A DNA stretch of 64,000 bases from an uncultured Bacteroidales bacterium (GTDB lineage Bacteria; Bacteroidota; Bacteroidia; Bacteroidales; VadinHA17): positions 44,854 to 108,853 of the forward strand of contig CAVTDE010000007.1 in assembly GCA_963733455.1 (NCBI GenBank). The letters run 5' to 3'. Numbering within the stretch: position 1 is the stretch's first letter; each line of letters starts with the position of its first letter. The notes under the pieces are model-generated. The model made no database searches. It was not told the origin of the DNA and saw only the letters and a program-made list of their open reading frames with translations. Made by a program: the position numbers and the translations under genes. Shown piece by piece: positions 410 to 54,832 of the stretch.

Positions 410-2125
410 TTACATTTCCTGAGATAAATTCAGGATAACCTGATTGTTTTCCGGGTAGATTTTAAAACCGGGCCCGGCATCCGATGATACAAACGCGCCT
501 CTTGTAGCCCTTATAGCATAGTTAAAACCCTCGAAATTACAATCAATTTTACTGCGGTTAATGTTTCTGAAAGGCAACTCTTTCTTATCGGCTGTAGCCA
601 GATCCAAAAACCAGTCTGCAGCTTTATCGCTTTTCAGTGCCATCTTAATTTCGTGTTCATTCATGTCAATAAGGAATATTCCCTCGATCGATTTTAAAGG
701 CCATGTTATGTGCAAAAATCCTTTGCGGGCACTGGTTATCACCGGGTCACCTCCCTCTAAAGCAGTTTCTTTTCCATTTACCATAACTTTGAACTTCAGG
801 CCGGCCAGCTGCTGTGCAGCACTCCATAGGAACCCATCGACGAAAGGCAGTGTAAAGAACTTACATTCGTTTGAGGTAGTTGGCTCCTTCTCATAAACCG
901 ACGGAAATTTCTCATTAAATAAATGAATATCCCTTATCCTCAGCGTACTGTTTTCCCACAATAAATTAATGCGATAAAACCTACTGTTGAACCAAACGGT
1001 TTTCAGGTTGCTCGCGCGGATATCATTATTTACCGTAACTGATGTTGCCGGAGTTACTTTATAATTTTGCCTAAACCAGTTTCCTGATTCTGCCAGTGTT
1101 TCAACCTGTATTTTATGCTGATCTCGTAAGCTGGCAATTAAGGGCATTTGTAACTCCAAACCTTTTTTCATGGCATTCCATGTAAAAGAATTCTCCTGCC
1201 CGGCCTGGACATAGCCAAATTCCATGCTTTCGCCATTTACAAATTCTTTAAAATACCAGTTTACCCAGGTGGAGTCACCGCCGGCCTTTTTGTAAACGGG
1301 TTCGAGCGTAACAACGCCCTGGCCGTTTGTACTCAGCCCGTTGTCATATTGGCGAATGGGGTCGCTCCCCAGCATCCTGAAAATGGGTACCGGAATTTGG
1401 TTTGCAGCATGCTGGGCAGGCATATAGGAGTTGAGTTTGCTCGGGTAGTAAGCCTGGTTCCAGTAACCGCCCCAGAGGGTATAGCCATCTGTGCCATACT
1501 GGTCCTTGCAATTTGCCGAAGCCACTATATGATACTTTTTATACAGATAGTTGAGTGTATGAGCATCAATAAACCAGGAGGCTACGGATTTTGGATAATA
1601 GCCGAATATGTTTTTAAAATCGTTCATGTAAACATCAGCCAGCTTTTCACGTTCGCCGGGAGTATATCCTGTAGCAAAGCCAATGTTTGCCCGCCAGTCC
1701 CAGGGATATCGCCCACGCCATTTCAATCCGGCTTTTTCTACCAGGGGCTGCGGAATTTCCCACCAGGCACCAATTTCAAAAGAGTCACGTGGCAGTCTTT
1801 TTAGTAGTTGCTGATAACGCGGGTCAATCAGTGCATCGTACTGTAGCAAAAACGTACCGCCCAATTTGTACTGCTTCATGAGTTCAATCTGTTTAACTAC
1901 AGTTTGATACAACACATCTTCCGTTACTCTCCGATCCCTCGGCTCCAGCAAGCGTATGAAGTTGACAATATTTACGATTTTGGGGCGGTTTTTATTATTC
2001 GCCGAGTCGCTTTGTGCATAGCCGGTTGAACATAACAACGACATGCCGGTTAATATCAGCAAAGCAAATCGGATAAGTGTTTTTAGTGTTATTTTTCTCA
2101 CGTCTGTTCTGGTATTAAATGTCAT
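410..2125 (-). CDS. Secreted hypothetical protein, possibly a carbohydrate-active enzyme (family not recognised)
   Basis: Long ORF 410..2194. The likely start is the ATG at 2125, giving signal peptide MTFNTRTDVRKITLKTLIRFALLILTGMSLLCSTGYAQS. The protein is aromatic/Trp-rich like glycan-active enzymes. No catalytic motif was recognised. Confidence 0.6.
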   Translation of the reverse strand: MTFNTRTDVRKITLKTLIRFALLILTGMSLLCSTGYAQSDSANNKNRPKIVNIVNFIRLLEPRDRRVTEDVLYQTVVKQIELMKQYKLGGTFLLQYDALIDPRYQQLLKRLPRDSFEIGAWWEIPQPLVEKAGLKWRGRYPWDWRANIGFATGYTPGEREKLADVYMNDFKNIFGYYPKSVASWFIDAHTLNYLYKKYHIVASANCKDQYGTDGYTLWGGYWNQAYYPSKLNSYMPAQHAANQIPVPIFRMLGSDPIRQYDNGLSTNGQGVVTLEPVYKKAGGDSTWVNWYFKEFVNGESMEFGYVQAGQENSFTWNAMKKGLELQMPLIASLRDQHKIQVETLAESGNWFRQNYKVTPATSVTVNNDIRASNLKTVWFNSRFYRINLLWENSTLRIRDIHLFNEKFPSVYEKEPTTSNECKFFTLPFVDGFLWSAAQQLAGLKFKVMVNGKETALEGGDPVITSARKGFLHITWPLKSIEGIFLIDMNEHEIKMALKSDKAADWFLDLATADKKELPFRNINRSKIDCNFEGFNYAIRATRGAFVSSDAGPGFKIYPENNQVILNLSQEM

Positions 2126-2407
2126 ATCCCGGGTCAGCATTACTGATGGCATGATATTAGCATTCCTTTCAGCCGATAACTGAAGCCTAATCAAAATCCA
2201 ACAGTTAAAGATAAAAATAAAAGCTCAATAGCGTTGGCCGCGCCGGATGTTCTAAGCTTCAGGACGGATTTTACTATTTGACTTATAATGTATAAATTAG
2301 TACCTTAGTTGGTGACTTTATTGAAATTATGTTAAAGGTCTATTTTGCACTCGGATGCAAATTAGGAGTCTATCCAATGGTTAAGCAAATCAGAGGAGAT
2401 TGATTAA

Positions 2408-3214
2408 ATGAACAAGCAGACCTTTTTAGAAAATGTTATTATCATAACTGGTGCATCATCCGGGATTGGGATGCACTTAGCGCTACGACTTGCTGAACAA
2501 GGTGCATGGCTCGCATTAGCGGCACGTAATATTGAGCATCTGGAGGAAGTTTCAAAACAATGTCATCAGCGAGGTGGTAAGGTTATCATTGTACCAACAG
2601 ATGTTACCGAGAAATCTCAATGTCAAAACCTGATTGAGCAGACTGTTGCGGAATATGGAAGAATTGATACCTTGATCAATAATGCGGGTATTGGTATAGC
2701 CTCCAGATTTGACGCATTAAATGATCTAACTATATTTGAACAGGTCATTCGGGTGAACTTTTTCGGCAGCGTATATTGCACGCATTATGCATTGTCCTAT
2801 TTAAAAGAAACCCATGGACGTTTGGTCGGGATATCCAGTCTTCGCGGCAAATTTCCGTCTGCAACAGCAGATGGTTATGGTGCAAGTAAGCACGCAATGT
2901 CTGAATTTTTCTCATCACTTAGAATAGAATTAGCTGATAGCGGTGTCAGCGTAACTCTAATTTACCCAGGATGGGTTAGTACTGGAATTAGCAGCAGAGC
3001 CATTAAAGCGGATGGAAGGCTTACAAACGAAACTTCAATCCATGAAAAAGGAGCTATGTCAGTTGAGACTTGCTCACGCATAATCGTTAATGCTGTTGCA
3101 AAACGGAAACGTCAAGTTGTAATGACCCTACAAGGCAAGTTAGGATTATGGTTGCATTTAATAGCTCCAAAAATTACCGATCAAATGGTCAAAAAGAATA
3201 CTGATTTAAGGTAA
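2408..3214 (+). CDS. SDR family oxidoreductase (short-chain dehydrogenase/reductase)
   Basis: TGASSGIG cofactor motif, NNAG, and catalytic YGASKHA (YxxxK). AGGAG-like sequence upstream. Confidence 0.9.
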   Translation: MNKQTFLENVIIITGASSGIGMHLALRLAEQGAWLALAARNIEHLEEVSKQCHQRGGKVIIVPTDVTEKSQCQNLIEQTVAEYGRIDTLINNAGIGIASRFDALNDLTIFEQVIRVNFFGSVYCTHYALSYLKETHGRLVGISSLRGKFPSATADGYGASKHAMSEFFSSLRIELADSGVSVTLIYPGWVSTGISSRAIKADGRLTNETSIHEKGAMSVETCSRIIVNAVAKRKRQVVMTLQGKLGLWLHLIAPKITDQMVKKNTDLR

Positions 3215-3219
3215 AATAA

Positions 3220-4014
3220 ATGAGAGATCTATATTTTTTTCAGGACAAAGTAATCTTAATTACAGGAGCATCAAGTGGTATTGGTCGGGCTACAGCTCTG
3301 ATTTTTGCAGAACTAAAGGCAAAAGTGATTCTATCTTCAAGGAATGAAGAAAAATTGGAGTTTTTGAAACAAGAAATTGAGTTGAGGGGGGGACAAGCTT
3401 TTGTGATCAAAGCAGATGTCAGTTCATTGGAAGACACTCAAAAAATGGTAATGGCTTCAATTTTAAAATGGGGTAACATAGATATATTAATAGCCAATGC
3501 AGGTGTTTATTTCCAGGATGTAAGTCATGAAATAAATGTTGAATCGTTTCGGGAATCTTTTAAAATAAATTTTTTCGGTGTACTACATGCTATAAAAAGT
3601 GTTCTTCCTGAAATGAAACATCAGGGGAAAGGTCATATTGTAATTGTTAACAGTCTTGATGCCAAGAAAGGTATAATAGGTGATTCTCCTTATGTAGCGG
3701 CGAAATCAGCATTGGATGGATTGGGGGATGTATTGCGTCAGGAGCTTAGAGGGGAAGGAATAAAAATAACTTCAATATATCCAGCTCGTGTTGATACACC
3801 AATGATTGAAAACATAAGGGTACCCTGGATATCTCCGAAGATTTCTCCGTTTAAAGTAGCGAAAGCTATTGTAAAAGGAATCAAAAGAAATAGGGCTATT
3901 GTTATAGTGCCTCCTTCAAACTTCCTGCTTGGGTCGTTAAATAACTTGTTCCCTCGTCTGCTCGATTGGTTTTATCTGACACTAAGAATTCAAGGAGAAA
4001 AAGTCAAGGAATAA
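3220..4014 (+). CDS. SDR family oxidoreductase (second tandem paralogue)
   Basis: TGASSGIG, ANAG and YVAAKSA (YxxxK). It starts 6 nt after the previous SDR stop. Confidence 0.9.
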   Translation: MRDLYFFQDKVILITGASSGIGRATALIFAELKAKVILSSRNEEKLEFLKQEIELRGGQAFVIKADVSSLEDTQKMVMASILKWGNIDILIANAGVYFQDVSHEINVESFRESFKINFFGVLHAIKSVLPEMKHQGKGHIVIVNSLDAKKGIIGDSPYVAAKSALDGLGDVLRQELRGEGIKITSIYPARVDTPMIENIRVPWISPKISPFKVAKAIVKGIKRNRAIVIVPPSNFLLGSLNNLFPRLLDWFYLTLRIQGEKVKE

Positions 4015-4196
4015 GAATGGAACAAGAAGAGCCGGAGGCCTTGACCATATATTAACCACTACAAATTGACTACCAAAATCACTTTTTCATCTCCCTCTCT
4101 CCCCCTCTCCCTTTCTCCCCCTCCTTCTTATTTGTCTTCAAAACAAATTTTTCGGCGAAGACCACAGAGGACGCAAAATGGTTGAATCCTTTTTCC

Positions 4197-4204
4197 TACT
4201 TTTG
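4197..4204 (+). promoter_or_regulatory. Candidate Bacteroidota -7 promoter element (TAnnTTTG)
   Basis: TACTTTTG lies 18 nt upstream of the 4222 ATG. This is a motif match only. Confidence 0.3.
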
Positions 4205-4221
4205 AAACCTCAAACGAAAAG

Positions 4222-6396
4222 ATGCTCAGCTCTAAACGATTCCTTCTCTTAATCCTATTTCTCTCCGGAGTAATATTGCTTTATTCCCAGGAGAAGGCTG
4301 TGAACCGTGATAAATACCGTATTAACATATCACGAACCAGCGAGGCAATGAAGATTGACGGAGTGCTTGATGAAAAATCCTGGCAGGTCTCAGAGGTAGC
4401 TGAAAATTTTATACGTGTGACGCCGGTGGATACAGGTTTTGCAATTGCAAAAACTACAGTTGTAATCACCTACGATAAATCAAATATATATGTCGGAGCT
4501 GTCTGCTATGATCCCTTACCCGGAAAAAGACCCGTGGAATCCCTGCGCAGGGATTTTGAGTTTGGCAAAAATGATAACTTCAGGATACATATAGATACCT
4601 ATAATAACCAGACGAATGGATTTGCCTTCGGCGTCTCTGCAGCGGGCGCCCAGTGTGACGGAGTGATAAACAACGGAAACCAGTCGAGCTTTACCTGGGA
4701 TATCAAATGGAAATCCGCAGTGAAGAGCTACAACGATCGCTGGGTGGCTGAGATGGCCATCCCTTTCCGCAGTCTCCGTTATCTCGGGGGAGAGAAAGAA
4801 TGGGGAGTCAACTTTGGTCGGCTAGATCTTAAAACGAACGAAAAATCAGCATGGGCTCCTGTTCCGCGTCAATTTCCTCACAACTCTCTGCCACACGCAG
4901 GATCTCTGATGTGGGATAAGCCCCTTGATAAAGCTGGATTACGGTTATCCATCATCCCTTACGCCACTTCTACAGTCATAAAAAATACAGAAGCAGGCGA
5001 ATCTGCAAAATGGAAATGGAACGCAGGTTTTGATACTAAAATGATATTGTCAACATCCATGAACCTCGACCTGACAGTCAATCCTGATTACTCCCAGGTT
5101 GAGGAAGACAGGCAGCAGACTAATCTCGATCGCTTTGAATTGTTTTATCCTGAAAGACGACAGTTTTTTCTTGAGAACAGTGACCTGTTTGCCGATCTCG
5201 GGAACAGTCAGGCACGTCCTTTCTTTTCAAGGCGTATCGGACTTAATGTCCCTGTAAATTTCGGCGGAAGATTGACCGGAAGGATTGGCAATAAATGGAG
5301 GATCGGGATGATGGATATGCAAACAGGATCAAAAGGCGAAAGCCGTTCAGGTAATTACGCGGTCGCTGTTCTGCAGCGTGAGATCTTCAGCCGTTCCAGT
5401 ATTGTAGGGTTTCTTGTCAATAAAAATATCACTGAATCGTTTGATGATTCTGCGTTCACCGGGTACCGTTACAACAGGGTGGCAGGACTGGAATATAATT
5501 ACGCAAGCGCAGATAACCAGTGGCAGGGTAAAGTATTCTATCATCAGTCATTTTATCCGGGAGCGGGCATGGATGCTGCAGCTGTTTCCGGAAATATCAG
5601 TTATTCCTCTCAGTATCTGAAAGCCGGTATCGATCAGTCGTGGATAGGATCTGATTACATTGCCGAAGCTGGTTATATAAGAAGAACAGGTTTCTATGAG
5701 CTCACACCGTCTGTCAGCTACCTGTTTTATCCATCAGGGTCAAAAAGGATCATCAGTCATGGTCCCGGTGCCAGCTTCAATGCGATCTTCGATCCGGAAT
5801 TCAATCTTACTGACCGGGAAACACAGCTTTCATATAGTATCGGATGGCAGAATAAAAGCCAGCTGTCCGTCAGCATTGAAGAACAATTCGTTAAGCTCAG
5901 CAGTGCTTTTGATCCTACCAATACCGAGGGAGAGAAATTTGTCGCAGGTGAGCAGTTTAACTGGAAAAGTGTCCGGGCGGGATTTACTTCAGATGCCCGA
6001 AAATTATTCAACTACACCCTGAATGCAAGCATCGGAGGTTACTATAACGGAAACCGCTGGAACATCAGCGGACTGATTAACTACCGGGTACAGCCATATG
6101 GCAGCATCGGAATGACAGCGAGCTATAACAATATCTTATTACCCGAGCCTTACAACAGTGCGAAGTTGATCCTTGTGGGACCCGCACTGGATATAACCTT
6201 CACGGATAAAATATTCCTCACTACATTCGTCCAGTACAACAACCAGGTCGATAACCTGAATATGAATATCCGCTTACAGTGGCGTTTTGCACCGGTGTCG
6301 GATCTATTTATTGTGTATACAGGGAATTCCTACACGGAAAATTTCGTGAATAAGAATCGGGGATTAGTCATTAAGCTATCATACTGGTTTAACTAA
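4222..6396 (+). CDS. CBM9-like / DUF5916 domain outer-membrane-type protein
   Basis: Signal peptide, then an N-terminal MKIDGVLDEKSWQ block typical of the CBM9-like domain. The long beta-rich C-terminal region ends in an aromatic SYWFN. Confidence 0.8.
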   Translation: MLSSKRFLLLILFLSGVILLYSQEKAVNRDKYRINISRTSEAMKIDGVLDEKSWQVSEVAENFIRVTPVDTGFAIAKTTVVITYDKSNIYVGAVCYDPLPGKRPVESLRRDFEFGKNDNFRIHIDTYNNQTNGFAFGVSAAGAQCDGVINNGNQSSFTWDIKWKSAVKSYNDRWVAEMAIPFRSLRYLGGEKEWGVNFGRLDLKTNEKSAWAPVPRQFPHNSLPHAGSLMWDKPLDKAGLRLSIIPYATSTVIKNTEAGESAKWKWNAGFDTKMILSTSMNLDLTVNPDYSQVEEDRQQTNLDRFELFYPERRQFFLENSDLFADLGNSQARPFFSRRIGLNVPVNFGGRLTGRIGNKWRIGMMDMQTGSKGESRSGNYAVAVLQREIFSRSSIVGFLVNKNITESFDDSAFTGYRYNRVAGLEYNYASADNQWQGKVFYHQSFYPGAGMDAAAVSGNISYSSQYLKAGIDQSWIGSDYIAEAGYIRRTGFYELTPSVSYLFYPSGSKRIISHGPGASFNAIFDPEFNLTDRETQLSYSIGWQNKSQLSVSIEEQFVKLSSAFDPTNTEGEKFVAGEQFNWKSVRAGFTSDARKLFNYTLNASIGGYYNGNRWNISGLINYRVQPYGSIGMTASYNNILLPEPYNSAKLILVGPALDITFTDKIFLTTFVQYNNQVDNLNMNIRLQWRFAPVSDLFIVYTGNSYTENFVNKNRGLVIKLSYWFN

Positions 6397-12738: not shown

Positions 12739-12812
12739 TCTGGTTTTTTCAAAATTTGAAAAAGTAAATGACCGGGTGGTGATAATTAAATAATAACTAT
12801 GCTACTCCGCTA

Positions 12813-12943
12813 ATCAATGCCGGAGGCATTTAATTCCAATAGCCACGGTCACGCCCGTGGTACTGAGAACTGATAAATAACACAACCCCGGAGTGGGTTG
12901 AACATATTTAGGTTATAAGATATTTCTCGTCATAATCAACAGA
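12813..12943. repeat. About 130-bp direct repeat, copy 1 (transposase 3' flank with two hairpins)
   Basis: Near-identical to 13274-13405. Contains the hairpins ccacgg-tcacgc-ccgtgg and aaccc-cggagt-gggtt. Confidence 0.85.
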
Positions 12944-13033
12944 ATGCTCATTCAATAAATCTATTAACTCTTGCTTAAAAGTGACAATCTTATGATAAGT
13001 TTGGCGACTCGTTACAGGCAGCCGTAAAATCAT
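12908..13033 (-). pseudogene. C-terminal remnant of an IS200/IS605-type (Y1, RAYT-like) transposase
   Basis: The minus-strand translation ends ..HKIVTFKQELIDLLNEHSVDYDEKYLIT*. This matches the usual C-terminal pattern of Y1 transposases (HH-K-x-TFKxE..LL..H.V.YDEKYL). Only about 41 codons remain. Confidence 0.55.
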
Positions 13034-13063
13034 AGTAAAATAAGCAGCCATAATAAATATAAA

Positions 13064-13342
13064 ATGAGTATTACACTAAGTAAACTGATACCTGTAATTG
13101 GGTTGACTTTATTAACCTCCTGGTTATCCGGACAGTCTGACATCAATAAAGTATATACCCTGAAATATGAATATGAAGGCTTAAATTCCGCAGTTGGATC
13201 AGTTGCCGGAGCATCTTCTAAAGACAGTCTGGATGTATGCTACATGATCTGGTTTCTGAAAGGCTACACCGCCAATCAATGCCGGAGGCATTTAATTCCA
13301 ATAGCCACGGTTACGCCCGTGGTACTGAGAACTGATAAATAA
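13064..13342 (+). CDS. Short signal-peptide ORF, possibly the truncated 5' end of a secreted-protein gene
   Basis: MSITLSKLIPVIGLTLLTSWLSGQS signal. The last ~22 codons are encoded by repeat copy 2, so the C-terminus is repeat-derived. Confidence 0.35.
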   Translation: MSITLSKLIPVIGLTLLTSWLSGQSDINKVYTLKYEYEGLNSAVGSVAGASSKDSLDVCYMIWFLKGYTANQCRRHLIPIATVTPVVLRTDK

Positions 13343-13405
13343 CACAACCCCGGAGTGGGTTGAACATATTTAGGTTATAAGATATTTTCTCGTCATAATC
13401 AACAG
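13274..13405. repeat. About 130-bp direct repeat, copy 2
   Basis: Same sequence as 12813-12943, with a few substitutions and a 1-nt indel. It retains the last transposase codons (SVDYDEK) out of frame. Confidence 0.85.
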
Positions 13406-13540
13406 ACATAACAAACATTTTTGCTTATTATTCAGCACTTTACTAAATTTATAAAAAATTTCTAACCATGCCAAGTCTCGAAATTAATGTTGATTTTGCA
13501 AGGTTCAGAGGCGCTGTTCATTTTTTGTTGACTTTTATTA

Positions 13541-19722: not shown

Positions 19723-21828
19723 ATGAAAAAAATTTATGCAATTTCTGTCATCTGCCTCATTTTGGCACTGGTGGTCTCATGTACTGCCGGTAAAGAGAAG
19801 GAACCTCAACCTGTACTTGGAACAAGGTCAGTTGCAATTATTGAAAAAAAGGGGCTGAAGTTCAAAGACCTTAACAAAAACGGTAAGCTTGACAAGTATG
19901 AGGATTGGAGACTGACCCCTGAAGAAAGAAGCAAGGACCTGCTTTCCAAAATGTCTTTGAACGAGAAGGCCGGCTTTATGCTGATCAACTCTGCAAATAT
20001 GATCGGAACCCGAAGAGCAGAGGCTTCAGAGAATAAACTTGCGGCAAGTGATCTTGATGATGGTGCAGGTCGTTCAGAATTTCCAGGAGGTGGTGGTTTC
20101 GGGCAGAACAGGAACAGGCAGGGTGCACAGGAACGACCACGGGAAGGCGCTGCCGGAGCAAACGGTGAACGCATAGCAAATATGAATAGTTCGGCCGGAA
20201 CAGTCAAAGTGGTGAAAGAGTTTCATAACCGTCATTTTATTCTCCGGTCAAATGAGAGTGCAAGGATTACTGCTGAATGGGCCAATAAACTTCAGTCCCT
20301 TTGCGAGAGCGAACCACTTGGTATTCCTGCAATAATTGCTTCAAATCCCCGTAACAACATCACTACCAACGCATCCCTCGGTACCAGCGTAGGAACAACA
20401 ATCTTTTCTTCCTGGCCCGGGGAACTCGGCTTGTCGGCAATGCGCGATCTGTCACTGACAGGGGAATTTGCCAATATTGCCAGACAGGAATGGACTGCTG
20501 TCGGCCTTAGAAAGGGTTATATGTATATGGCCGACCTTGCAACAGAGCCACGCTGGTCGAGAGTAAACGGAACTTTCGGAGAAAATGCTGATTGGGTCGC
20601 CCAAATGATGAGAGAAGTTGTTCTGGGTTTCCAGGGAGAAAAGTTAAATCCGACATCTGTCGCTCTTACAACAAAACACTTTCCTGGCGGAGGATCAGGC
20701 TATAAGGGCCAGGATTCTCACTTTGACTGGGGTAAAAAAGAAGTTTACCCTGGTGGAATGTTCAGGAATAACCTGATTTCATTTCAGGCGGCTATTGATG
20801 CCGGTACCTCAGCTATTATGCCATACTATTCACTTCCTTCCGGAACCGAATATGAGGAGGTTGGATATGCCTTCAACAAAGGGGTAATTACTGACCTTCT
20901 CAGAAACCAGATGGGTTTTAAAGGAATCATTAACTCCGATACCGGACCTCTGACAGGTATGCCATGGGGAGTTGAAAAACTCACGAAGCAGGAGCGCTAT
21001 AAAAAGGCAATTGAAGCAGGTGTGAATATCTTCTCGGGTGAATCCGATCCTGCTATGCTGATCAACGTGATCGATAGCGGAATGGTCGACATCAGTTATA
21101 TTGACAATTCTGTTCTCCGTCTTCTTAAAGAAAAATTTGAACTCGGATTGTTTGAGAATCCGTATGTGGATGAAGATGCCGCAGAAAAAATTGTCAATAA
21201 TGATAAATTCAGGGAGAGAGCTGCCGTTGCAATGCGTAAATCAATAGTACTTTTAAGGAACAATAATAATGCATTACCACTAAAGCCCGGATTAAAAGTA
21301 TATTTTGAGTCTCTTCAGAGAAATGCCAGAGGACCTGCATCCGATGCGCCAAACATTTATGCATTAAATGACAATAAATATCAAGTAGAATTTGTTAAAA
21401 CTCCGGATAAATCTGACATAGCAATTCTATGGATACAGCCAACCGGAAATTCATTATTCGGCTCATCCGGATCACCAATATCATTGTCACTTTCAAAATG
21501 CTCAGTAGATGTCAATTATATCAACAGGATTGCCTCTCAAAAGCCAACCATTTTAGTAATAAACTATACTAATCCATGGGTAATAAATGAAATATACAAT
21601 GATAAAACTAAAAATATTGCTGCTATTCTTGCCACATTCGGGACTACCCCCGACGCAGTCCTGGATGTAATTACCGGTAAATTTAATCCTTCCGGTAAAA
21701 TGCCCTTTTCTACACCAGTCTCTGATCTTGCAGTTGAGAATCAGAAAGAGGATGTTCCTGGTTATTTGGAAGGAGCTGCCTATGCTCTCTTTAATTACGA
21801 TGAAGGATTAAGCTATGTAAAGGAGTAA
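19723..21828 (+). CDS. Glycoside hydrolase family 3 (beta-glucosidase-like) lipoprotein
   Basis: Lipobox LVVSCTAG, DLNKNGKLDKYEDWRL, KHFPGGG and GFKGIINSD (GH3 nucleophile region). Contains a Gly/Arg-rich insert. Confidence 0.9.
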   Translation: MKKIYAISVICLILALVVSCTAGKEKEPQPVLGTRSVAIIEKKGLKFKDLNKNGKLDKYEDWRLTPEERSKDLLSKMSLNEKAGFMLINSANMIGTRRAEASENKLAASDLDDGAGRSEFPGGGGFGQNRNRQGAQERPREGAAGANGERIANMNSSAGTVKVVKEFHNRHFILRSNESARITAEWANKLQSLCESEPLGIPAIIASNPRNNITTNASLGTSVGTTIFSSWPGELGLSAMRDLSLTGEFANIARQEWTAVGLRKGYMYMADLATEPRWSRVNGTFGENADWVAQMMREVVLGFQGEKLNPTSVALTTKHFPGGGSGYKGQDSHFDWGKKEVYPGGMFRNNLISFQAAIDAGTSAIMPYYSLPSGTEYEEVGYAFNKGVITDLLRNQMGFKGIINSDTGPLTGMPWGVEKLTKQERYKKAIEAGVNIFSGESDPAMLINVIDSGMVDISYIDNSVLRLLKEKFELGLFENPYVDEDAAEKIVNNDKFRERAAVAMRKSIVLLRNNNNALPLKPGLKVYFESLQRNARGPASDAPNIYALNDNKYQVEFVKTPDKSDIAILWIQPTGNSLFGSSGSPISLSLSKCSVDVNYINRIASQKPTILVINYTNPWVINEIYNDKTKNIAAILATFGTTPDAVLDVITGKFNPSGKMPFSTPVSDLAVENQKEDVPGYLEGAAYALFNYDEGLSYVKE

Positions 21829-21861
21829 TACTCGTGCACTCTGTTGTTGTTGACATTTATC

Positions 21862-22440
21862 TTAATTCTCTTGCAGATTACCGATTTCTTCGATCGGAGT
21901 TCTTCTCCGGACTTTAATATTTTTAAAATGAGAAGGCGAGAGTCCGGTGACTTTTTTAAATTGTTTGGATAAATATGAAATGCTGCTGTAGTTCATTTTC
22001 CAGGCAATTTCTGAGAGATTTAATTCGTCATAAATTATAAGTTCTTTAATCCGTTCAATTTTGTTTAAAATTACGAATTGCGCAATTGTAATTCCCTGCA
22101 CTTCTGAAAACAGATTCGCCATGTAGGTATAGTCGTAATTTAGTTTTTCGCTTAAAAAGTCAGAAAAGTTTATTTTAATGAGTTCATCCGAATGATGAAC
22201 CATATCGATAATTGTGGTCTTAATTTTTTCAATCAAAATAGCTCTTTTATCATCTATTAATTCAAGGCCTGACTTAAGCAATCCGATTTTTATCTGTTCC
22301 CGCTGCTCCTGAGATATATCTTCCATTATCTCAACTTCACCCAAATCAACGATGATGAAATGCAGGCCAAGGTTTTTCAACTCCGTCTTCACCGCCATCT
22401 TGCAACGGTTACTCACCATATATTTAATATATAACTTCAA
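21862..22440 (-). CDS. AraC-family (HTH_18) transcriptional regulator, short type
   Basis: N-terminal MVSNRCKMAV block typical of small Bacteroidota AraC proteins. C-terminal helix-turn-helix IAWKMNYSSISYLSKQFKKVTGLSPSHFK. Confidence 0.85.
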   Translation of the reverse strand: MKLYIKYMVSNRCKMAVKTELKNLGLHFIIVDLGEVEIMEDISQEQREQIKIGLLKSGLELIDDKRAILIEKIKTTIIDMVHHSDELIKINFSDFLSEKLNYDYTYMANLFSEVQGITIAQFVILNKIERIKELIIYDELNLSEIAWKMNYSSISYLSKQFKKVTGLSPSHFKNIKVRRRTPIEEIGNLQEN

Positions 22441-22662
22441 GAATTTTAGTTTTTTACATCAACTTCGTTAATGGCTTCCAAATGTTCTGATTCCGGGCCG
22501 GTTTTTCTATTGAAAATCATAAGTTTTTATGTTTATCATTAGCCGGCTTTAATTCTTAAAAGAGTTTTTGGGTTTAAAGGTAAGTCTGCAATTTTGCGAA
22601 AGCGTTACATATTTAATAAAATAAGTTACATCATTCACACATTCAGAGAAATTAATAAAAAT

Positions 22663-22697
22663 ACAAAAAAAAGGCAACCCATAATCCAGGATGCCTT
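22663..22697 (-). terminator. Rho-independent terminator of the DUF3494 gene
   Basis: The minus strand reads aaggcatcc-tggattat-gggttgcctt followed by T8, about 20 nt after the stop at 22720. Confidence 0.7.
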
Positions 22698-22719
22698 AGT
22701 CAAAATACCGACTATAATT

Positions 22720-24228
22720 TTAAGGTCTGTTTAATGTATTCGTACTGGTTAATGTAACTGCAGCATTAATGGCAAGCATTCTGCCTTCTGCAACTGCATG
22801 TGAGTTCATTGTTATGGACGTCAAAGCCAATACGTTCCCTTTAAAAGAAGTGTAATCTCCAATTGTGGCTGAACTGCCAATCTGCCAAAAGATATTTTTA
22901 GCCTGAGCGCCACCGGTAAGAATAACATTACCCCCTGCTCCACCTACTGTGGTTAGTGCAGATCCGACCTGAAAAATCCAGACAGCGTCGACATTACCCT
23001 GTGCATCGAGAGTCAGATCGCCTGAAGCTATCAATAGAGAAGATGTCGATTTGTAAATGCCCGGGGTGAGTGTCTTTCCACCCTGATCGCCAGCTACCAG
23101 TACAGGTGCCGGTAAAATTGCAGCCTGGGCAAAAAGATATGCACTGTTAAGATCCAGTTTAGCCTGTGCAAGCATTGCGGATGTTCCCATAGGGAGCATG
23201 TCATCAGATCCGTAAATAGCTCCGTTAGATATTAAAGCCGGCGGAAATCCTGTTATTGAAGCACGAATACCGGGGCTAATCCCTACATCCAGATTATTGA
23301 TCACGCTCAGACCAACGCTGGTAATTGCAGCGGCTCCGATAATTCCAAATCGTGCTGCTGATTTAAGATCAACAAATAAGGGATTAACAGTTACAACTGG
23401 GACCGGTACCGGATCTGGAACTGGTACTACTAAAGTAACAGGACTGTTTATAGCGTTCGTACTGGTTAATGTAACCGCAGCATTAATGGCAAGCATTCTG
23501 CCTTCTGCAACTGCATGTGAGTTCATTGTTATGGACGTCAAAGCCAATACGTTTCCTTTAAAAGAAGTGTAATCTCCAATTGTGGCTGAACTGCCAATCT
23601 GCCAAAAGATGTTTTTAGCCTGAGCGCCACCGGTAAGAATAACATTACCCCCTGCACCACCTACTGTGGTTAGTGCAGATCCTACCTGAAAAATCCAGAC
23701 AGCGTCGACATTACCCTGTGCATCGAGAGTCAGATCGCCTGAAGCTATCAATAAAGAAGATGTCGATTTGTAAATGCCCGGGGTGAGTGTCTTTCCACCC
23801 TGATCGCCAGCTACCAGTACAGGTACCGGTGAAAGTGCTGCTTCGGCAAAGAGATAAGCATCCGTAAGATCCAGTTTAGCCTGTGCAAGCATTGCAGATG
23901 TTCCCATAGGGAGCATGTCATCAGATCCGTAAATAGCTCCGTTAGATATTAATGCCGGCGGAAATCCTGTTATTGAAGCACGAATTCCAGGACTAATCCC
24001 AACATCCAGATTATTGATCACACTCAGACCAACATTTGTTATTGCAGTAGCTCCAAGAATCCCGAACCGACCTGCTGATTTAAGATCAACCGATAAGGGA
24101 TTATTAATTGTTTTTGATGATATGGTGGCTGGGTTTATGTTCCCGGTTACGAGTTCATCTTTTTGACACCCTGGTAATAGTCCAACCGATACTATCGCAA
24201 AGGCTGTTAATAAATTAATTACTTTCAT
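22720..24228 (-). CDS. Tandem two-domain DUF3494 (ice-binding-like) lipoprotein
   Basis: Lipobox LLPGCQKDE. Two ~230-aa beta-helix-type DUF3494 domains (FGILGA..ITN.G.S.I.G.....PG...TGFPP...G.IY...) are joined by a PVPDPVPVPV linker. The two domains are near-identical at the DNA level with a 717-nt period. Confidence 0.85.
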   Translation of the reverse strand: MKVINLLTAFAIVSVGLLPGCQKDELVTGNINPATISSKTINNPLSVDLKSAGRFGILGATAITNVGLSVINNLDVGISPGIRASITGFPPALISNGAIYGSDDMLPMGTSAMLAQAKLDLTDAYLFAEAALSPVPVLVAGDQGGKTLTPGIYKSTSSLLIASGDLTLDAQGNVDAVWIFQVGSALTTVGGAGGNVILTGGAQAKNIFWQIGSSATIGDYTSFKGNVLALTSITMNSHAVAEGRMLAINAAVTLTSTNAINSPVTLVVPVPDPVPVPVVTVNPLFVDLKSAARFGIIGAAAITSVGLSVINNLDVGISPGIRASITGFPPALISNGAIYGSDDMLPMGTSAMLAQAKLDLNSAYLFAQAAILPAPVLVAGDQGGKTLTPGIYKSTSSLLIASGDLTLDAQGNVDAVWIFQVGSALTTVGGAGGNVILTGGAQAKNIFWQIGSSATIGDYTSFKGNVLALTSITMNSHAVAEGRMLAINAAVTLTSTNTLNRP

Positions 24229-24622
24229 ATTATTGATTTAATTTTGTGAATAAATTTTCACATGACAAAGGTGATGTCATTTCTAAGCAGATGTGTTGTA
24301 CATTTAAAGGGAAGAGTTGTCTTTTTCACACATTTACCAAAAGTTATAATGAAAGTCTGCTATTAAACTTGCTATGCATCTATAATGGTTAATTAGCAGT
24401 AACCGTATATAAGTAAATGAATAGGAAAGATATAACTCTAAAATTTACTTCAAATCTCAGTGGAAAATCGTTGAAAAAAAACTAACGCATCGAATTAAAG
24501 GGATAAAGGATACTGAAGCCCACGGCAAATCCTTTTTTTGCAAATTCATAAATAGTAGCGATATTAGTACCACTAACGAGCGGATATAAAAAAACTCAAT
24601 GTCGGACAAAATATTTCTTAAT

Positions 24623-25852
24623 ATGAATAAAATATCAAAAGTTATCTTTCTGGCGGTTGTTTGTTTATTGTTAACCTCGGGTCAGTTATACTTTGGTTCA
24701 TCCGACAATTTATCAGGGCAATCTCAGGAAGAATATCTTCCCGTAGTTAATGAGCTTCCTGATCTTTTTCTTAGAAATGATGGATCCCGGGTGACAACAG
24801 TTGGTCAATGGAAATCACATCGCGAAGAGTTGGTAGAAAAATTACTGAAATATGAATATGGTCATCTGGCTAAATCGTCTCCCGTACTTGTAATAAACGA
24901 ATCTGCTGATTCAATAATAAGAGATGGACCTGATATTATAAGAAAGAAGGTTGTGAATTTAAAAACTGGTCCTGGAGGAGAGATTAGTTTCACATTGAAT
25001 CTTTTTGTACCAGACAAAAGTGAGGGACCATTTCCTGCAATTATTGACGGTGATCTCTGTTGGGGATCATTGCTTAAAAGGTTGAAGCCGGAAGGATTAG
25101 TATCTCTTGTAAAGCGCGGGTACATAATCGTAGAATTTGATCGTACAATATTTGCAGCGGATAGGAATACCAGAGACGAAGGGGTATTTCCCCTTTATCC
25201 AAATTATGACTGGGGTGCGCTTGCTGCCTGGGCATGGGGTTTTCATCGCACGATTGATTATCTTCTTACCCAGAGTGCAATTAATAAGGATAAGATCTGC
25301 GTTACTGGTTGGTCACGCGGTGGAAAAGCTTGTCTGCTTGCAGGTGCACTTGATGAGAGAATTGCCCTGGTCGCACCCAACTGTTCCGGTACATGCGGTT
25401 CTGGTCCATTGCGTTATGTCGACACCGGTGGTGAAAAAATTGATAATATTGCTACCACATTCCCTTACTGGTTCAATCCCACTTTTCGAAAGTTTACTGG
25501 AAAAGCGGTCGAAACACTGCCTTTTGATCAGCATACTTTAATTGCATTGGTCGCCCCACGTGCATATTTAAGTACCAATGGGTTAAAGGATGCATGGGCA
25601 AATCCAAAAGGGACAGCTCAGGCACATCTTGCAGCTAAGGAAGCTTTTAAAGCCCTGGGTGTGGAAAATAAAATCGGGATCTTCTATACAAATTCAGGTC
25701 ATGATCATAATATTGACAAGTGGATTGCCTTACTTGATTTTGCAGATTTGACCTTTTACGGTAAAAAGACTTCTTATGATTATAACAAGATACCTTTTAA
25801 TGATCTGCCGAAAGCTTATTCCTGGACCTCATCTGTACTGTCTATAAATTAA
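24623..25852 (+). CDS. CE15-like glucuronoyl esterase (alpha/beta hydrolase)
   Basis: VTGWSRGGKACLLAGALDERIALVAPNCSGTCGSGPLR aligns with the CE15 consensus VTGCSRxGKGALxAGAxDERIAL..PQESG.GG. Signal peptide from the ATG at 24623. Confidence 0.7.
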   Translation: MNKISKVIFLAVVCLLLTSGQLYFGSSDNLSGQSQEEYLPVVNELPDLFLRNDGSRVTTVGQWKSHREELVEKLLKYEYGHLAKSSPVLVINESADSIIRDGPDIIRKKVVNLKTGPGGEISFTLNLFVPDKSEGPFPAIIDGDLCWGSLLKRLKPEGLVSLVKRGYIIVEFDRTIFAADRNTRDEGVFPLYPNYDWGALAAWAWGFHRTIDYLLTQSAINKDKICVTGWSRGGKACLLAGALDERIALVAPNCSGTCGSGPLRYVDTGGEKIDNIATTFPYWFNPTFRKFTGKAVETLPFDQHTLIALVAPRAYLSTNGLKDAWANPKGTAQAHLAAKEAFKALGVENKIGIFYTNSGHDHNIDKWIALLDFADLTFYGKKTSYDYNKIPFNDLPKAYSWTSSVLSIN

Positions 25853-29586: not shown

Positions 29587-29841
29587 TTAGGATAAGTTAT
29601 TTCTATTATCTGGCACACACCAGCCTTCGTCTTCCGGACAGATCGACCAGGATTCCACAATCCCCCACTGGCTGTAAGGTCCCCAGTGCATCAGTAACCC
29701 GAATTTAATATCCTGCCATTGATCTATTCTTGTTTGAATCAATGGATTAGGATCAGGAACATAGATCTGTTCATTGTGTTGGGCAGATACTCTCATTACT
29801 GACAGGGCCAGAATAAAGAAAAGAAGTTTTTTTGATTTCAT
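29587..29841 (-). pseudogene. N-terminal remnant of a GH29 alpha-L-fucosidase
   Basis: Signal peptide plus RIDQWQDIKFGLLMHWGPYSQWGIVESW, the GH29 N-terminal block. It stops after 84 codons and no continuation appears in any frame before the next gene. Confidence 0.6.
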
Positions 29842-54577: not shown

Positions 54578-54832
54578 TTAAGTTGCAGGTAAATAACTTG
54601 GGGCTGTTTAAAAGGTCTAAATCCATTAACCGCAAAGATCGCGAAGGATTTACGCAAATGCCGATAGCTATCGGCACGCAAAGAGCTAATTATTAACTTT
54701 TTAACTTTGCGTGCTTTGCGCCTTCTTAGCGTCCTTTGCGGTTAAAAAAGGCGTTTTCAACAACCCCAATTTTATTTTAGAATAGCAGACCTCTTCTTAC
54801 GAAAAAAACTCTTAGGTTGACGGTCTATGGAG
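54578..54832. mobile_element. MITE-like palindromic element, copy D (inverted relative to copy A)
   Basis: The core 54625-54745 is a near-exact reverse complement of 30257-30375, including GCCGATAGCTATCGGC. It ends in ctcttaggttgacggtctatgg, resembling the CTTAAGTTGACG terminus. Confidence 0.65.

What the first reader, a model, noticed from the sequence alone, without database searches (positions are those of the whole stretch)
22720..24228. Ice-binding-like (DUF3494) protein made of two almost identical tandem domains
The gene contains a 717-nt (239-codon) direct duplication: 22741 onward versus 23458 onward. By eye there are only scattered substitutions, apart from one more diverged patch that maps to ..FAEAALSPVPV.. 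versus ..FAQAAILPAPV... The two domains are linked by PVPDPVPVPV. Multi-domain DUF3494 ice-binding proteins are known, but this level of DNA identity implies a very recent duplication or ongoing gene conversion. The gene has its own strong terminator and an adjacent small AraC regulator. Long near-identical repeats are also a place where assemblies collapse or expand copy number.
Basis: partly seen in the sequence, partly recalled or inferred. Interest (0 to 1): 0.55.

Follow-up and report, generated by a model that had tools for sequence, protein, structure and literature searches.

The report
Two-domain ice-binding-like lipoprotein, homogenised domains
An uncultured Bacteroidota bacterium encodes a predicted cell-surface lipoprotein with two DUF3494 (ice-binding-like) domains that are 93% identical in DNA, most likely because gene conversion keeps overwriting an older duplication; this is a clean example of something that recurs in the family, not a new kind of system.

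Summary
The gene lies on the minus strand (22720-24228, 502 aa). It contains a direct repeat with a 717-nt period. The similar part is 663 nt (codons 43-263 vs 282-502): 45 differences, 93.2% nt and 93.7% aa identity. Both halves are full PF11999/DUF3494 domains, and the model matches solved ice-binding proteins. The N-terminus reads as a Bacteroidota surface-lipoprotein signal (C21-QKDEL). The PV-rich linker, a hairpin plus U-tract terminator and the adjacent small AraC regulator are all present.

The identity is not an assembly artefact. A second assembly from a roughly 99%-identical strain has the same two-copy gene and shares 40 fixed differences between the copies.

Gene conversion explains the identity better than one fresh duplication:
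- Synonymous divergence is mosaic (dS 0.37 vs 0.077; max-chi-square P<=0.001).
- Similarity stops at the domain borders, and the linker has no second copy.
- The closest two-domain relatives have halves only 70-72% identical (dS>1.2).
- Copy-specific sites agree with one relative 8:1.
- One strain difference appears in both copies.

The pattern is not unique: 6 of 98 multi-domain DUF3494 representatives have adjacent domains at least 90% identical. Ice binding remains untested.

The parts
22720..24228 (-). Whole gene, 502 codons plus stop: a lipoprotein with two DUF3494 domains
   Evidence: ORF. PF11999 x2, E 1.3e-114. The exact protein is P0121 in public collections.
24166..24228 (-). Signal peptide and lipobox, codons 1-21 (MKVINLLTAFAIVSVGLLPG-C21)
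   Evidence: Read directly from the translation. No signal-peptide predictor was available.
24103..24165 (-). Lipoprotein export signal Q-K-D-E-L at +2..+6, followed by a disordered tether (codons 22-42)
   Evidence: Matches the optimal C-X-K-(D/E)2-X motif and the QKDDE consensus of PMC5080379. pLDDT is below 50 for residues 14-44.
23440..24102 (-). DUF3494 domain 1 (codons 43-263), repeat copy 1
23386..23439 (-). Pro/Val-rich linker VTLVVPVPDPVPVPVVTV (codons 264-281). It is not part of the similar segment and has no second copy before domain 1 or after domain 2.
   Evidence: pLDDT below 50 for residues 266-283.
22723..23385 (-). DUF3494 domain 2 (codons 282-502), repeat copy 2
23455..23823 (-). 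Most recently homogenised tract, copy 1 (codons 136-258). Its partner is 22738-23106 (codons 375-497). Between them: 0 non-synonymous and 7 synonymous differences, dS 0.077.
23824..23865 (-). Diverged patch, copy 1 (codons 122-135, ..TDAYLFAEAALSPV..). Its partner is 23107-23148 (..NSAYLFAQAAILPA..). It lies at the end of the long alpha-helix and in the following loop.
   Evidence: Helix 110-130 in the model. E vs Q/K at this site is copy-specific in the relatives too.
23551..23551 (-). Third base of codon 226. Together with its paralogous site 22834 (codon 465) it reads C/C in the window and T/T in the second strain.
   Evidence: Chance estimate.
22664..22714 (-). Two hairpins after the stop codon. 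The second (22672-22696) is followed by a run of seven U (22665-22671): a likely intrinsic terminator.
   Evidence: Not listed by the consensus scan.
21862..22440 (-). Small AraC-type regulator (192 aa: an N-terminal ~90-aa domain plus HTH_18), 280 nt downstream on the same strand
   Evidence: Homologues lie next to DUF3494 genes in many Bacteroidota loci.
24262..24280 (.). Palindrome ATGACAaaggtgaTGTCAT, 34-52 nt upstream of the start codon. A possible operator, but speculative.
   Evidence: expected 0.03 per window. Present only in the window and the second strain among 163 loci.

Best explanation
The gene encodes a lipoprotein of a Bacteroidota bacterium. From the N-terminus it has a lipid-modified Cys21 followed by a surface-export signal, a ~20-residue disordered tether, a DUF3494 beta-solenoid domain, an 18-residue Pro/Val linker, and a second DUF3494 domain.

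The two domains descend from a duplication that is older than the split from the nearest known two-domain relatives. In this lineage their DNA has been repeatedly overwritten by intragenic gene conversion (non-reciprocal homologous recombination between the two copies). The most recent large tract covers the C-terminal two-thirds of the domain, which forms most of the solenoid. Older or no conversion has left the first ~25 codons, a helix-end patch and the tail distinct. Conversion appears to continue at strain level.

The functional consequence is inferred, not shown. The cell displays two essentially identical binding faces on a flexible stalk. This would give bivalent (avidity) binding to a periodic surface: ice if the domain behaves like its characterised relatives, otherwise another substrate. 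The gene is transcribed on its own, with its own terminator, and is probably controlled by the adjacent small AraC-type regulator.

Shown here: the repeat, the domains, the fold, the mosaic divergence, and the second-strain data. Inferred: surface exposure, the conversion mechanism, the regulation, and ice binding.
For: Repeat and numbers. Domains and fold.

Not selection alone: synonymous divergence between the halves is only 0.19, against more than 1.0 for every comparison with relatives.

Not one clean duplication:
- dS is 0.37 in codons 43-135 against 0.077 in codons 136-258 (Fisher p = 2.7e-4).
- Maximum chi-square with permutation gives P = 4e-4 for all sites and 1e-3 or less for synonymous codons only.
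- Similarity ends at the domain borders. The 54-nt linker has no counterpart before copy 1 or after copy 2, although a fresh 717-nt tandem duplication would leave one.

Older duplication:
- The nearest relatives P0002 and P0003 have the same architecture, a homologous leader and a VPVP(D/E)PV-type linker.
- Their halves are only 70.4% and 72.5% identical in DNA (dS 1.2 and 1.4).
- P0002-D1 groups with P0003-D1 at 86% bootstrap, and all six domains form one clade at 88%.
- Copy-specific nucleotide sites agree between the window and P0002 8:1 (p = 0.02), and between P0002 and P0003 29:10 (p = 0.002).

Ongoing conversion:
- Comparing the window with a second strain that is 99.05% identical over 13.8 kb, one synonymous change is present in both copies (codons 226/465).
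- In that strain three neighbouring sites of copy 2 (codons 445, 464, 465) all match copy 1, giving a 206-nt identical tract.
- The chance of a paralogous double hit is about 0.016-0.05.

Same process elsewhere in the family: L142 jumps from 60-65% to 98-100% nt identity within one domain pair, and L138 shows the opposite polarity.

Surface lipoprotein: C21-Q-K-D-E-L against C-X-K-(D/E)2-X (PMC5080379). AraC link. Terminator.
Against: In every tree the two domains of this gene are each other's closest relatives (100% bootstrap). In the C-terminal tree they sit outside a P0002+P0003 clade (81%). An independent duplication in this lineage, later partly converted, therefore cannot be excluded.

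The copy-specific-site test is significant only against P0002; against P0003 it is 5:3, not significant.

The strain-level evidence rests on one shared site and one short tract, with P about 0.02-0.05 and up to 0.1 under the most conservative null. Both sequences are metagenome consensus assemblies, and I could not inspect their reads.

Part of the N-to-C gradient reflects stronger protein constraint on the C-terminal coils, which is visible in relatives too.

For function: the protein scores 229.7 bits against NCBIfam's IBP_CFB equivalog, below the 400-bit cut-off. DUF3494 proteins are also described as substrate-binding or adhesive (PMC12337378). The habitat temperature is unknown. The flanking genes are carbohydrate-active enzymes.
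Confidence: 0.65

Rival explanations
1. A single, recent tandem duplication of one DUF3494 domain occurred in this lineage, independent of the duplications in relatives. The copies have simply not had time to diverge, and no gene conversion is involved.
For: The two halves cluster together with 93-100% bootstrap in all trees. In the C-terminal region they fall outside the P0002/P0003 four-domain clade. Overall dS is low at 0.19. Independent duplications clearly happen in this family.
Against: Divergence along the repeat is significantly heterogeneous even at synonymous sites: dS 0.37 vs 0.077, permutation P of 1e-3 or less. The 54-nt linker has no second copy, although at this divergence it should still be recognisable. 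Leader and linker are homologous with two-domain relatives whose halves are old. Copy-specific sites agree with P0002 8:1. One strain difference is present in both copies.
Confidence: 0.15
2. The duplicate is an assembly artefact: a mis-expanded repeat, or two strain variants of a single domain stitched in tandem.
For: Repeats of ~0.7 kb at more than 90% identity are hard for short-read metagenome assemblers. I could not see reads or coverage.
Against: A second public assembly (ENA ERZ25039545 contig_41814, 262.7 kb) differs from the window by about 1% and by several indels. It carries the same 1509-nt gene with two copies and the same 40 fixed between-copy differences. The reading frame is intact, a distinct linker joins the copies, and relatives share the architecture.
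Confidence: 0.03
3. The protein is not an ice binder. It is a DUF3494-fold surface adhesin or substrate-binding lipoprotein, for example for a polysaccharide or particle surface, in a carbohydrate-degrading Bacteroidota bacterium. The account of how the two domains evolved is unchanged.
For: DUF3494 is described in both ice-binding and substrate-binding or adhesive proteins across many environments (PMC12337378). The score is below the NCBIfam IBP equivalog cut-off. Neighbours are a GH3 glycosidase, a glucuronyl esterase, GFO/IDH/MocA oxidoreductases and a TonB-dependent receptor. There is no evidence that the habitat freezes.
Against: The best sequence and structure matches are all experimentally characterised ice-binding proteins: 6eio at E 2e-44 and 45% identity, and 5uyt, 6bg8, 4nu3, 7bwx at TM 0.85-0.91. 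The gene is its own transcription unit. Its gene context is not conserved in relatives apart from the AraC regulator, so the carbohydrate-enzyme neighbours may be incidental.
Confidence: 0.4
4. The similarity of the halves is maintained purely by strong purifying selection on an old duplication, with no recent DNA exchange.
For: dN/dS between the halves is 0.17, and there are no amino-acid differences in codons 136-258.
Against: Selection on the protein does not preserve synonymous sites. dS is 0.077-0.37 here, against 1.0-3 for every orthologous or paralogous comparison in relatives under the same constraint.
Confidence: 0.02

Closest known systems
IBPv, the two-domain DUF3494 antifreeze protein of Flavobacteriaceae bacterium 3519-10 (PDB 5UYT; PMC5673226)
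   Same: Both are Bacteroidota proteins with two DUF3494 domains in one chain. 5UYT is the top structural hit (E 3.7e-22). In IBPv each domain binds ice through a flat face of the solenoid, and the two domains cooperate.
   Different: IBPv's domains are only 44% identical and are functionally specialised: domain B is stronger, and different ice planes are proposed for each. Here the domains are 94% identical, and identical across most of the solenoid. The global superposition is poor (rmsd 21 A). This protein also has a long low-confidence Pro/Val linker and a lipoprotein signal.
Single-domain bacterial DUF3494 ice-binding proteins: EfcIBP (6EIO), FfIBP (4NU2/4NU3), ColAFP (3WP9)
   Same: Same fold for each domain. 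EfcIBP is the closest solved sequence (E 2.2e-44, 45% identity; TM 0.86).
   Different: They have one domain and are secreted rather than lipid-anchored. Their activity has been measured, whereas this protein's has not.
SfIBP_1 of Shewanella frigidimarina (6BG8), a proposed ice adhesin
   Same: A DUF3494 domain held on the cell by a tether, and proposed to stick the cell to ice rather than act as a free antifreeze (title cited in PMC9957290). Structural match TM 0.87.
   Different: SfIBP_1 has one DUF3494 domain on a stalk of tandem beta-sandwich domains. Here there are two DUF3494 domains on a short disordered tether with a lipid anchor.
Double- and triple-domain DUF3494 proteins in metagenomes (ddIBPs; PMC9957290)
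   Same: Double-domain proteins make up 11.75% of Arctic Ocean prokaryotic IBPs, come mostly from Bacteroidota, often carry signal peptides, and often sit in tandem gene arrays. In my own survey, 6 of 98 multi-domain representatives have adjacent domains at least 90% identical.
   Different: That paper does not analyse identity between the domains. A full-text search found no paper containing DUF3494 together with any of 'gene conversion', 'concerted evolution', 'internal duplication' or 'domain duplication'.
Concerted evolution of tandem repeat domains in bacterial surface proteins, and of antifreeze gene arrays (general knowledge, not tested here)
   Same: Near-identical tandem coding repeats homogenised by recombination between copies, giving mosaic divergence patterns.
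   Different: Those classic cases usually involve many short repeats with variable copy number. Here there are two long (221-codon) globular domains, and the copy number is the same in both strains.

Membership tests
Pfam PF11999 (Ice_binding / DUF3494) | Profile score above the gathering threshold | tested here: met
   381.5 bits against a 28.7-bit cut-off, two stretches, profile positions 1-205 of 208.
Pfam PF11999 (Ice_binding / DUF3494) | Fold: a discontinuous beta-solenoid braced by one long alpha-helix | tested here: met
   AlphaFold2 model with mean pLDDT 83.5. Each domain has a ~20-residue helix (110-130, 349-369) plus stacked strands. Foldseek TM is 0.85-0.91 to 6eio, 6bg8, 9li0, 7bwx and 4nu3.
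NCBIfam NF045625 IBP_CFB (equivalog 'ice-binding protein') | Whole-protein score at or above the curated cut-off of 400 bits | tested here: not met
   229.7 bits. The protein is related to that equivalog group but is not a member.
Functional ice-binding / antifreeze protein | Measured thermal hysteresis, ice shaping or recrystallisation inhibition | not testable with these tools
   There is no sequence motif that predicts ice affinity. Only homology to characterised IBPs is available.
Functional ice-binding / antifreeze protein | A flat, regularly spaced face of small or hydroxyl residues on the solenoid | not tested
   Model coordinates were not analysed residue by residue. The only relevant result is that codons 136-258, which form most of the solenoid coils, are identical in both domains.
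Double-domain DUF3494 protein (IBPv-like) | Two complete DUF3494 domains in one polypeptide | tested here: met
   Residues 43-263 and 282-502. 5uyt is the best structural hit.
Double-domain DUF3494 protein (IBPv-like) | Fixed relative arrangement of the two domains, as in the 5UYT crystal | tested here: inconclusive
   Global rmsd to 5uyt is 21 A, pTM is 0.51, and linker pLDDT is below 50. The orientation of the domains is not predicted with confidence.
Bacteroidota surface-exposed lipoprotein | Signal peptide ending in a lipobox cysteine | tested here: met
   MKVINLLTAFAIVSVGLLPG-C21, read from the translation. No SPII predictor was available, so this is judged by eye.
Bacteroidota surface-exposed lipoprotein | Lipoprotein export signal C-X-K-(D/E)2-X directly after the +1 Cys | tested here: met
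   C-Q-K-D-E-L against the QKDDE consensus and the optimal C-X-K-(D/E)2-X (PMC5080379). The second strain has E25G (C-Q-K-D-G-L), a weaker match.
Bacteroidota surface-exposed lipoprotein | The host is a member of Bacteroidota | tested here: inconclusive
   There is no marker gene in the window. Nearly all close genomic homologues of the DUF3494 gene and of the AraC gene are in Bacteroidota genomes. The window also holds a CarboxypepD_reg+Plug receptor and a protease with a PKD_6 domain and a weaker Ig_7 (CHU_C-associated) match, domains common in that phylum.
Concerted evolution by gene conversion | Copies within one genome are far more alike than each is to its counterpart in relatives | tested here: met
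   93.2% nt identity and dS 0.19 within the gene, against 68-74% and dS 1.2-3.1 to the P0002 and P0003 domains.
Concerted evolution by gene conversion | Mosaic divergence along the repeat, with segments of different ages | tested here: met
   dS 0.37 vs 0.077. Max-chi-square permutation P = 4e-4 for all sites and 1e-3 or less for synonymous sites. A 206-nt identical tract in the second strain has P < 5e-5.
Concerted evolution by gene conversion | The duplication predates the divergence from relatives that keep diverged copies | tested here: inconclusive
   Shared architecture, leader and linker. Copy-specific sites are 8:1 against P0002 (p = 0.02) but 5:3 against P0003 (not significant). The trees allow an independent duplication.
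Concerted evolution by gene conversion | A new variant is found in both copies of one strain and in neither copy of a sister strain | tested here: met
   Codons 226/465 read AAC/AAC in the window and AAT/AAT in the second strain. This is a single site, with a chance probability of about 0.016-0.05.
Rho-independent terminator | GC-containing hairpin immediately followed by a U run | tested here: met
   AGGCAUCCUG-GAUUA-UGGGUUGCCU followed by U7. It has one bulge and was not picked up by the strict scan.

The most novel reading that the evidence does not exclude
Tandem DUF3494 domains may be subject, family-wide, to recurrent intragenic gene conversion, seen here and in L142, L138 and several protein clusters with at least 90% identical neighbouring domains. 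The homogenised part is often, though not always (L138 shows the opposite polarity), the C-terminal solenoid that carries the binding face. This would mean selection favours, or at least tolerates, identical repeated binding faces for avidity on a periodic surface such as ice. That contrasts with the specialised, diverged domains of IBPv. In addition, DUF3494 genes in Bacteroidota may form a conserved two-gene module with a dedicated small AraC-type regulator, which could be a cold- or ice-responsive switch.
Probability: 0.25. Interest if true: 0.5.

Novelty: new member of a known kind. Interest (0 to 1): 0.3.

Why it matters
Double-domain DUF3494 proteins are common in cold-environment metagenomes. 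The only structurally characterised one, IBPv, has diverged and specialised domains. This gene, with a handful of others found in passing, represents the opposite regime: the two domains are kept nearly identical by DNA exchange.

That makes it a natural test of whether bivalency alone (two copies of the same face) improves ice or surface binding. It is also a caution for metagenome surveys that treat each domain as an independent lineage.

The recurrent pairing with a small AraC regulator gives a concrete handle on how these genes are controlled, which is largely unknown. None of this changes the picture of what DUF3494 proteins are.

Tried and rejected
- Tandem Repeats Finder found nothing because its period limit is 500.
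- The consensus terminator and promoter scan gave nothing useful for this gene.
- An exact look-up of the window protein in the contig index failed, although the identical sequence exists as P0121. The near-identical P0001 led to the second strain.
- Scans of species-representative genomes and of JGI metagenomes found no further close strains. The best hits were 62-76% identical, so the strain comparison rests on one pair.
- A uniform-placement test of the longest identical tract was not significant for the window copy (77 nt, P = 0.14) but was for the second strain. I therefore relied on the max-chi-square test instead.
- I tested whether the eight sites at which P0002 and P0003 share copy-specific residues while this gene's two copies are identical prove conversion. 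I rejected the argument, because substitutions specific to a P0002+P0003 clade explain those sites equally well.
- The upstream palindrome is not conserved in other loci.
- Rfam found no RNA element in 21700-24700.
- A PDB search with the AraC protein matched only the generic HTH half.
- There is no second DUF3494 gene in the window.
- GC content gives no clear sign of recent transfer: 0.40-0.46 in the gene against 0.32-0.48 nearby.
- I ran no further search on naming the organism.
Full report

Yes. The only long ORF across the flagged interval is on the minus strand, 22720..24228, and encodes 502 aa. The repeat finder independently reports a direct repeat with 717-nt spacing.

A base-by-base comparison at that offset shows similarity from 22723 to about 23386 against 23440 to about 24103, with background identity on both sides. 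In gene terms this is codons 43-263 against 282-502. The aligned segment is 663 nt with no indels and 45 differences, giving 93.2% nt identity. There are 14 amino-acid differences in 221.

The remaining 54 nt of the 717-nt period encode the linker VTLVVPVPDPVPVPVVTV, which is not repeated. The differences cluster in three places:
- the first ~25 codons of each domain;
- the last five codons.

Codons 136-258 carry only seven differences, all synonymous.

**2. What the gene encodes**

Pfam's Ice_binding model (PF11999, DUF3494) matches twice at E 1.3e-114. Sequence search of the PDB returns only characterised ice-binding or antifreeze proteins, led by EfcIBP (6eio, E 2.2e-44) and the two-domain IBPv (5uyt).

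An AlphaFold2 model built on a 29-sequence alignment has mean pLDDT 83.5. It shows two beta-solenoid domains, each with one long helix. Residues 14-44 and the linker 266-283 have low confidence. Foldseek puts 5uyt first, and single-domain ice-binding proteins match at TM 0.85-0.91.

The protein scores below the cut-off of NCBIfam's 'ice-binding protein' equivalog (229.7 vs 400 bits). It is therefore a family member, not an equivalog of the tested proteins.

The N-terminus is MKVINLLTAFAIVSVGLLPG-C21-QKDEL. The residues after the cysteine fit the Bacteroidota lipoprotein export signal, whose consensus is QKDDE and whose optimal form is C-X-K-(D/E)2-X (PMC5080379). I therefore infer a surface-exposed, lipid-anchored protein. 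This has not been shown.

Downstream of the stop codon, two hairpins fold, and the second is followed by seven U, which looks like an intrinsic terminator. The next gene, 280 nt further on the same strand, is a 192-aa AraC-type regulator.

**3. Is it an assembly artefact?**

The nearly identical protein P0001 led to ENA ERZ25039545 contig_41814. That contig is not the window. It is 99.05% identical over 13.8 kb and differs by indels and two larger insertions.

Its gene has the same length and the same two copies, with 12 nucleotide differences from the window's gene. Forty between-copy differences are fixed in both strains. The window's own protein is P0121, from a different 281-kb contig.

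Two independent assemblies agreeing, together with relatives that share the architecture, make a copy-number artefact unlikely. I could not inspect reads.

**4. Why are the halves so alike?**

Protein-level selection cannot be the reason. Synonymous divergence between the halves is 0.19, while every comparison with relatives is saturated at dS 1.0-3.1.

A single fresh duplication also fits poorly, for three reasons.
- Divergence is mosaic. dS is 0.37 in codons 43-135 but 0.077 in codons 136-258 (Fisher p = 2.7e-4). A maximum-chi-square scan with permutation, which corrects for choosing the breakpoint after the fact, gives P = 4e-4 for all sites and 1e-3 or less for synonymous codons only, in both strains.
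- Similarity stops at the domain borders. The 54-nt linker has no counterpart before copy 1 or after copy 2. At this level of divergence, a 717-nt tandem duplication should still show one.
- The closest relatives look old. P0002 (73% identical) and P0003 (70%) have the same leader, two domains and a similar VPVP(D/E)PV-type linker. Their halves, however, are only 70.4% and 72.5% identical in DNA (dS 1.2 and 1.4).

In bootstrapped NJ trees the six domains form one clade (88%), and P0002-D1 groups with P0003-D1 (86%). The duplication is therefore older than the P0002/P0003 split. Copy-specific nucleotide sites agree between P0002 and P0003 29:10 (p = 0.002) and between the window and P0002 8:1 (p = 0.02). 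Against P0003 the count is only 5:3.

The two domains of this gene always pair with each other (93-100%). In the C-terminal tree they sit outside the P0002/P0003 clade. That is what a converted pair would look like, but it also allows an independent duplication followed by conversion. Either way, some conversion is needed to explain the mosaic.

**5. Is conversion still going on?**

Nine of the twelve strain differences lie inside the two copies.
- Seven are private to one copy.
- One position differs between the strains in both copies: codons 226 and 465 read AAC/AAC in the window and AAT/AAT in the other strain.
- In the other strain, copy-2 codons 445, 464 and 465 all match copy 1. That produces a 206-nt identical tract (P < 5e-5 under uniform placement).

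One mutation plus one short conversion tract explains four of the nine sites. A chance paralogous double hit has probability about 0.016-0.05, and up to 0.1 under the most conservative null. This evidence is suggestive rather than conclusive.

On the dS scale, the last large homogenisation of the C-terminal two-thirds is roughly three times older than the strain split (0.077 vs 0.026). The N-terminal third is roughly fourteen times older.

**6. How unusual is it?**

Double-domain DUF3494 proteins are well known. They make up 11.75% of Arctic Ocean prokaryotic IBPs and come mostly from Bacteroidota (PMC9957290). The characterised example, IBPv, has domains that are 44% identical and have different activities (PMC5673226).

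Among 40 multi-domain proteins already in hand, between-domain identity was bimodal. Several were at 86-99%: P0040 at 99%, P0033 at 94% and P0017 at 90%.

A full HMMER search of 1.84 billion cluster representatives gave 98 multi-domain proteins among the top 150. The highest adjacent-domain identity was at least 90% in 6 of them and 80-90% in 14. That sample is biased towards strong hits to a two-domain query.

At the DNA level, L142 jumps from 60-65% to 98-100% identity within one domain pair, and L138 shows the reverse polarity. Intragenic conversion between tandem DUF3494 domains is therefore recurrent.

A full-text search found no paper containing DUF3494 together with any of 'gene conversion', 'concerted evolution', 'internal duplication' or 'domain duplication'. 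The general phenomenon in repeat-containing surface proteins is, to my knowledge, well established.

**7. How it most likely works**

Shown: a monocistronic gene for a two-domain DUF3494 protein with a lipoprotein-type leader. The two domains are identical across most of the solenoid. They differ mainly in the first coil and around the end of the bracing helix.

Inferred: the protein is lipid-anchored on the outer surface and holds two equivalent binding faces on flexible segments. This would give avidity for a repetitive surface.

By homology, ice is the leading candidate for that surface. However, DUF3494 is also described in substrate-binding and adhesive proteins (PMC12337378). The flanking genes are carbohydrate-active enzymes, and the habitat is unknown. 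I put ice binding at roughly even odds.

The AraC-type neighbour is probably its regulator. Homologues at 54-77% identity occur in 22 of 163 fetched DUF3494 loci from many Bacteroidota genera, and 13 of the hits lie within 1 kb of a DUF3494 ORF. Only one copy exists in the 64-kb window. I did not compute a proper genome-wide background rate.

**8. Verdict**

The mechanism is best read as gene conversion acting on an older duplication.

This is a tidy new member of a known kind (double-domain DUF3494 proteins, concerted evolution of tandem domains), not a new system. Interest is modest at 0.3. The family-wide conversion pattern and the DUF3494-AraC pairing are the two leads worth following.

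Noticed in passing
window 21862-22440 (minus strand); loci L010, L014-L018, L020-L023, L027, L029, L031, L042, L074, L118 and others: The small AraC-type regulator next to the gene has homologues at 54-77% identity in 22 of 163 DUF3494 loci from Pontibacter, Paludibacter, Saprospiraceae, Cyclobacterium and other Bacteroidota. Thirteen hits lie within 1 kb of a DUF3494 ORF, mostly on the same strand. This suggests a conserved gene pair. No background rate was computed.
   Followed up: partly
L142 (ORF 2850-4617) and L138 (ORF 555-3705): Other multi-domain DUF3494 genes show sharp mosaic identity between adjacent domains. L142 goes from 60-65% to 98-100% nt identity. L138 goes from 93-100% down to 70-88%. 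These are textbook conversion tracts in unrelated lineages.
   Followed up: partly
P0040, P0033, P0017, P0198, P0206, P0224, P0123, P0191, P0130: Protein clusters with neighbouring DUF3494 domains 90-99% identical, some with 5-6 domains in proteins of 1200-3200 aa. Near-identical tandem domains are recurrent in the family.
   Followed up: partly
L016 (5504-10052) and L092 (57-6889): Relatives carry arrays of four to five single-domain DUF3494 genes in tandem, interleaved in L016 with copies of the small AraC regulator.
   Followed up: no
window codon 25 of the gene (24154-24156) vs L001: The second strain has E25G inside the predicted lipoprotein export signal (CQKDEL to CQKDGL), plus N30D. 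These are the only two amino-acid differences between the strains in this protein.
   Followed up: no
window ~29608-29631 and ~12996-13083, vs L001 3703-4613 and 20138-20749: The second strain has about 0.9 kb extra, overlapping most of its alpha-L-fucosidase-like gene. It also has about 0.6 kb extra overlapping its Y1 (IS200-type) transposase gene. Both are absent from the window.
   Followed up: no
window 12801-12943 and 13263-13406; also 54590-54769: Short (~144-180 nt) sequences recur at 92-99% identity, near the transposase insertion site of the other strain and once 40 kb away. They may be small dispersed repeat elements.
   Followed up: no
window 24262-24280: Perfect 6+6 palindrome ATGACA-N7-TGTCAT, 34-52 nt upstream of the start codon (expected 0.03 per window). 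It is not found upstream of DUF3494 genes in other loci.
   Followed up: yes
P0004, P0005, P0007-P0009: A sister group of ~500-aa lipoproteins pairs a distant DUF3494 subtype (about 40% identity) in position 1 with a domain 74-80% identical to this gene's domains in position 2. The two are joined by a similar Pro/Val linker. Two-domain architectures have therefore been assembled from unlike domains as well.
   Followed up: no
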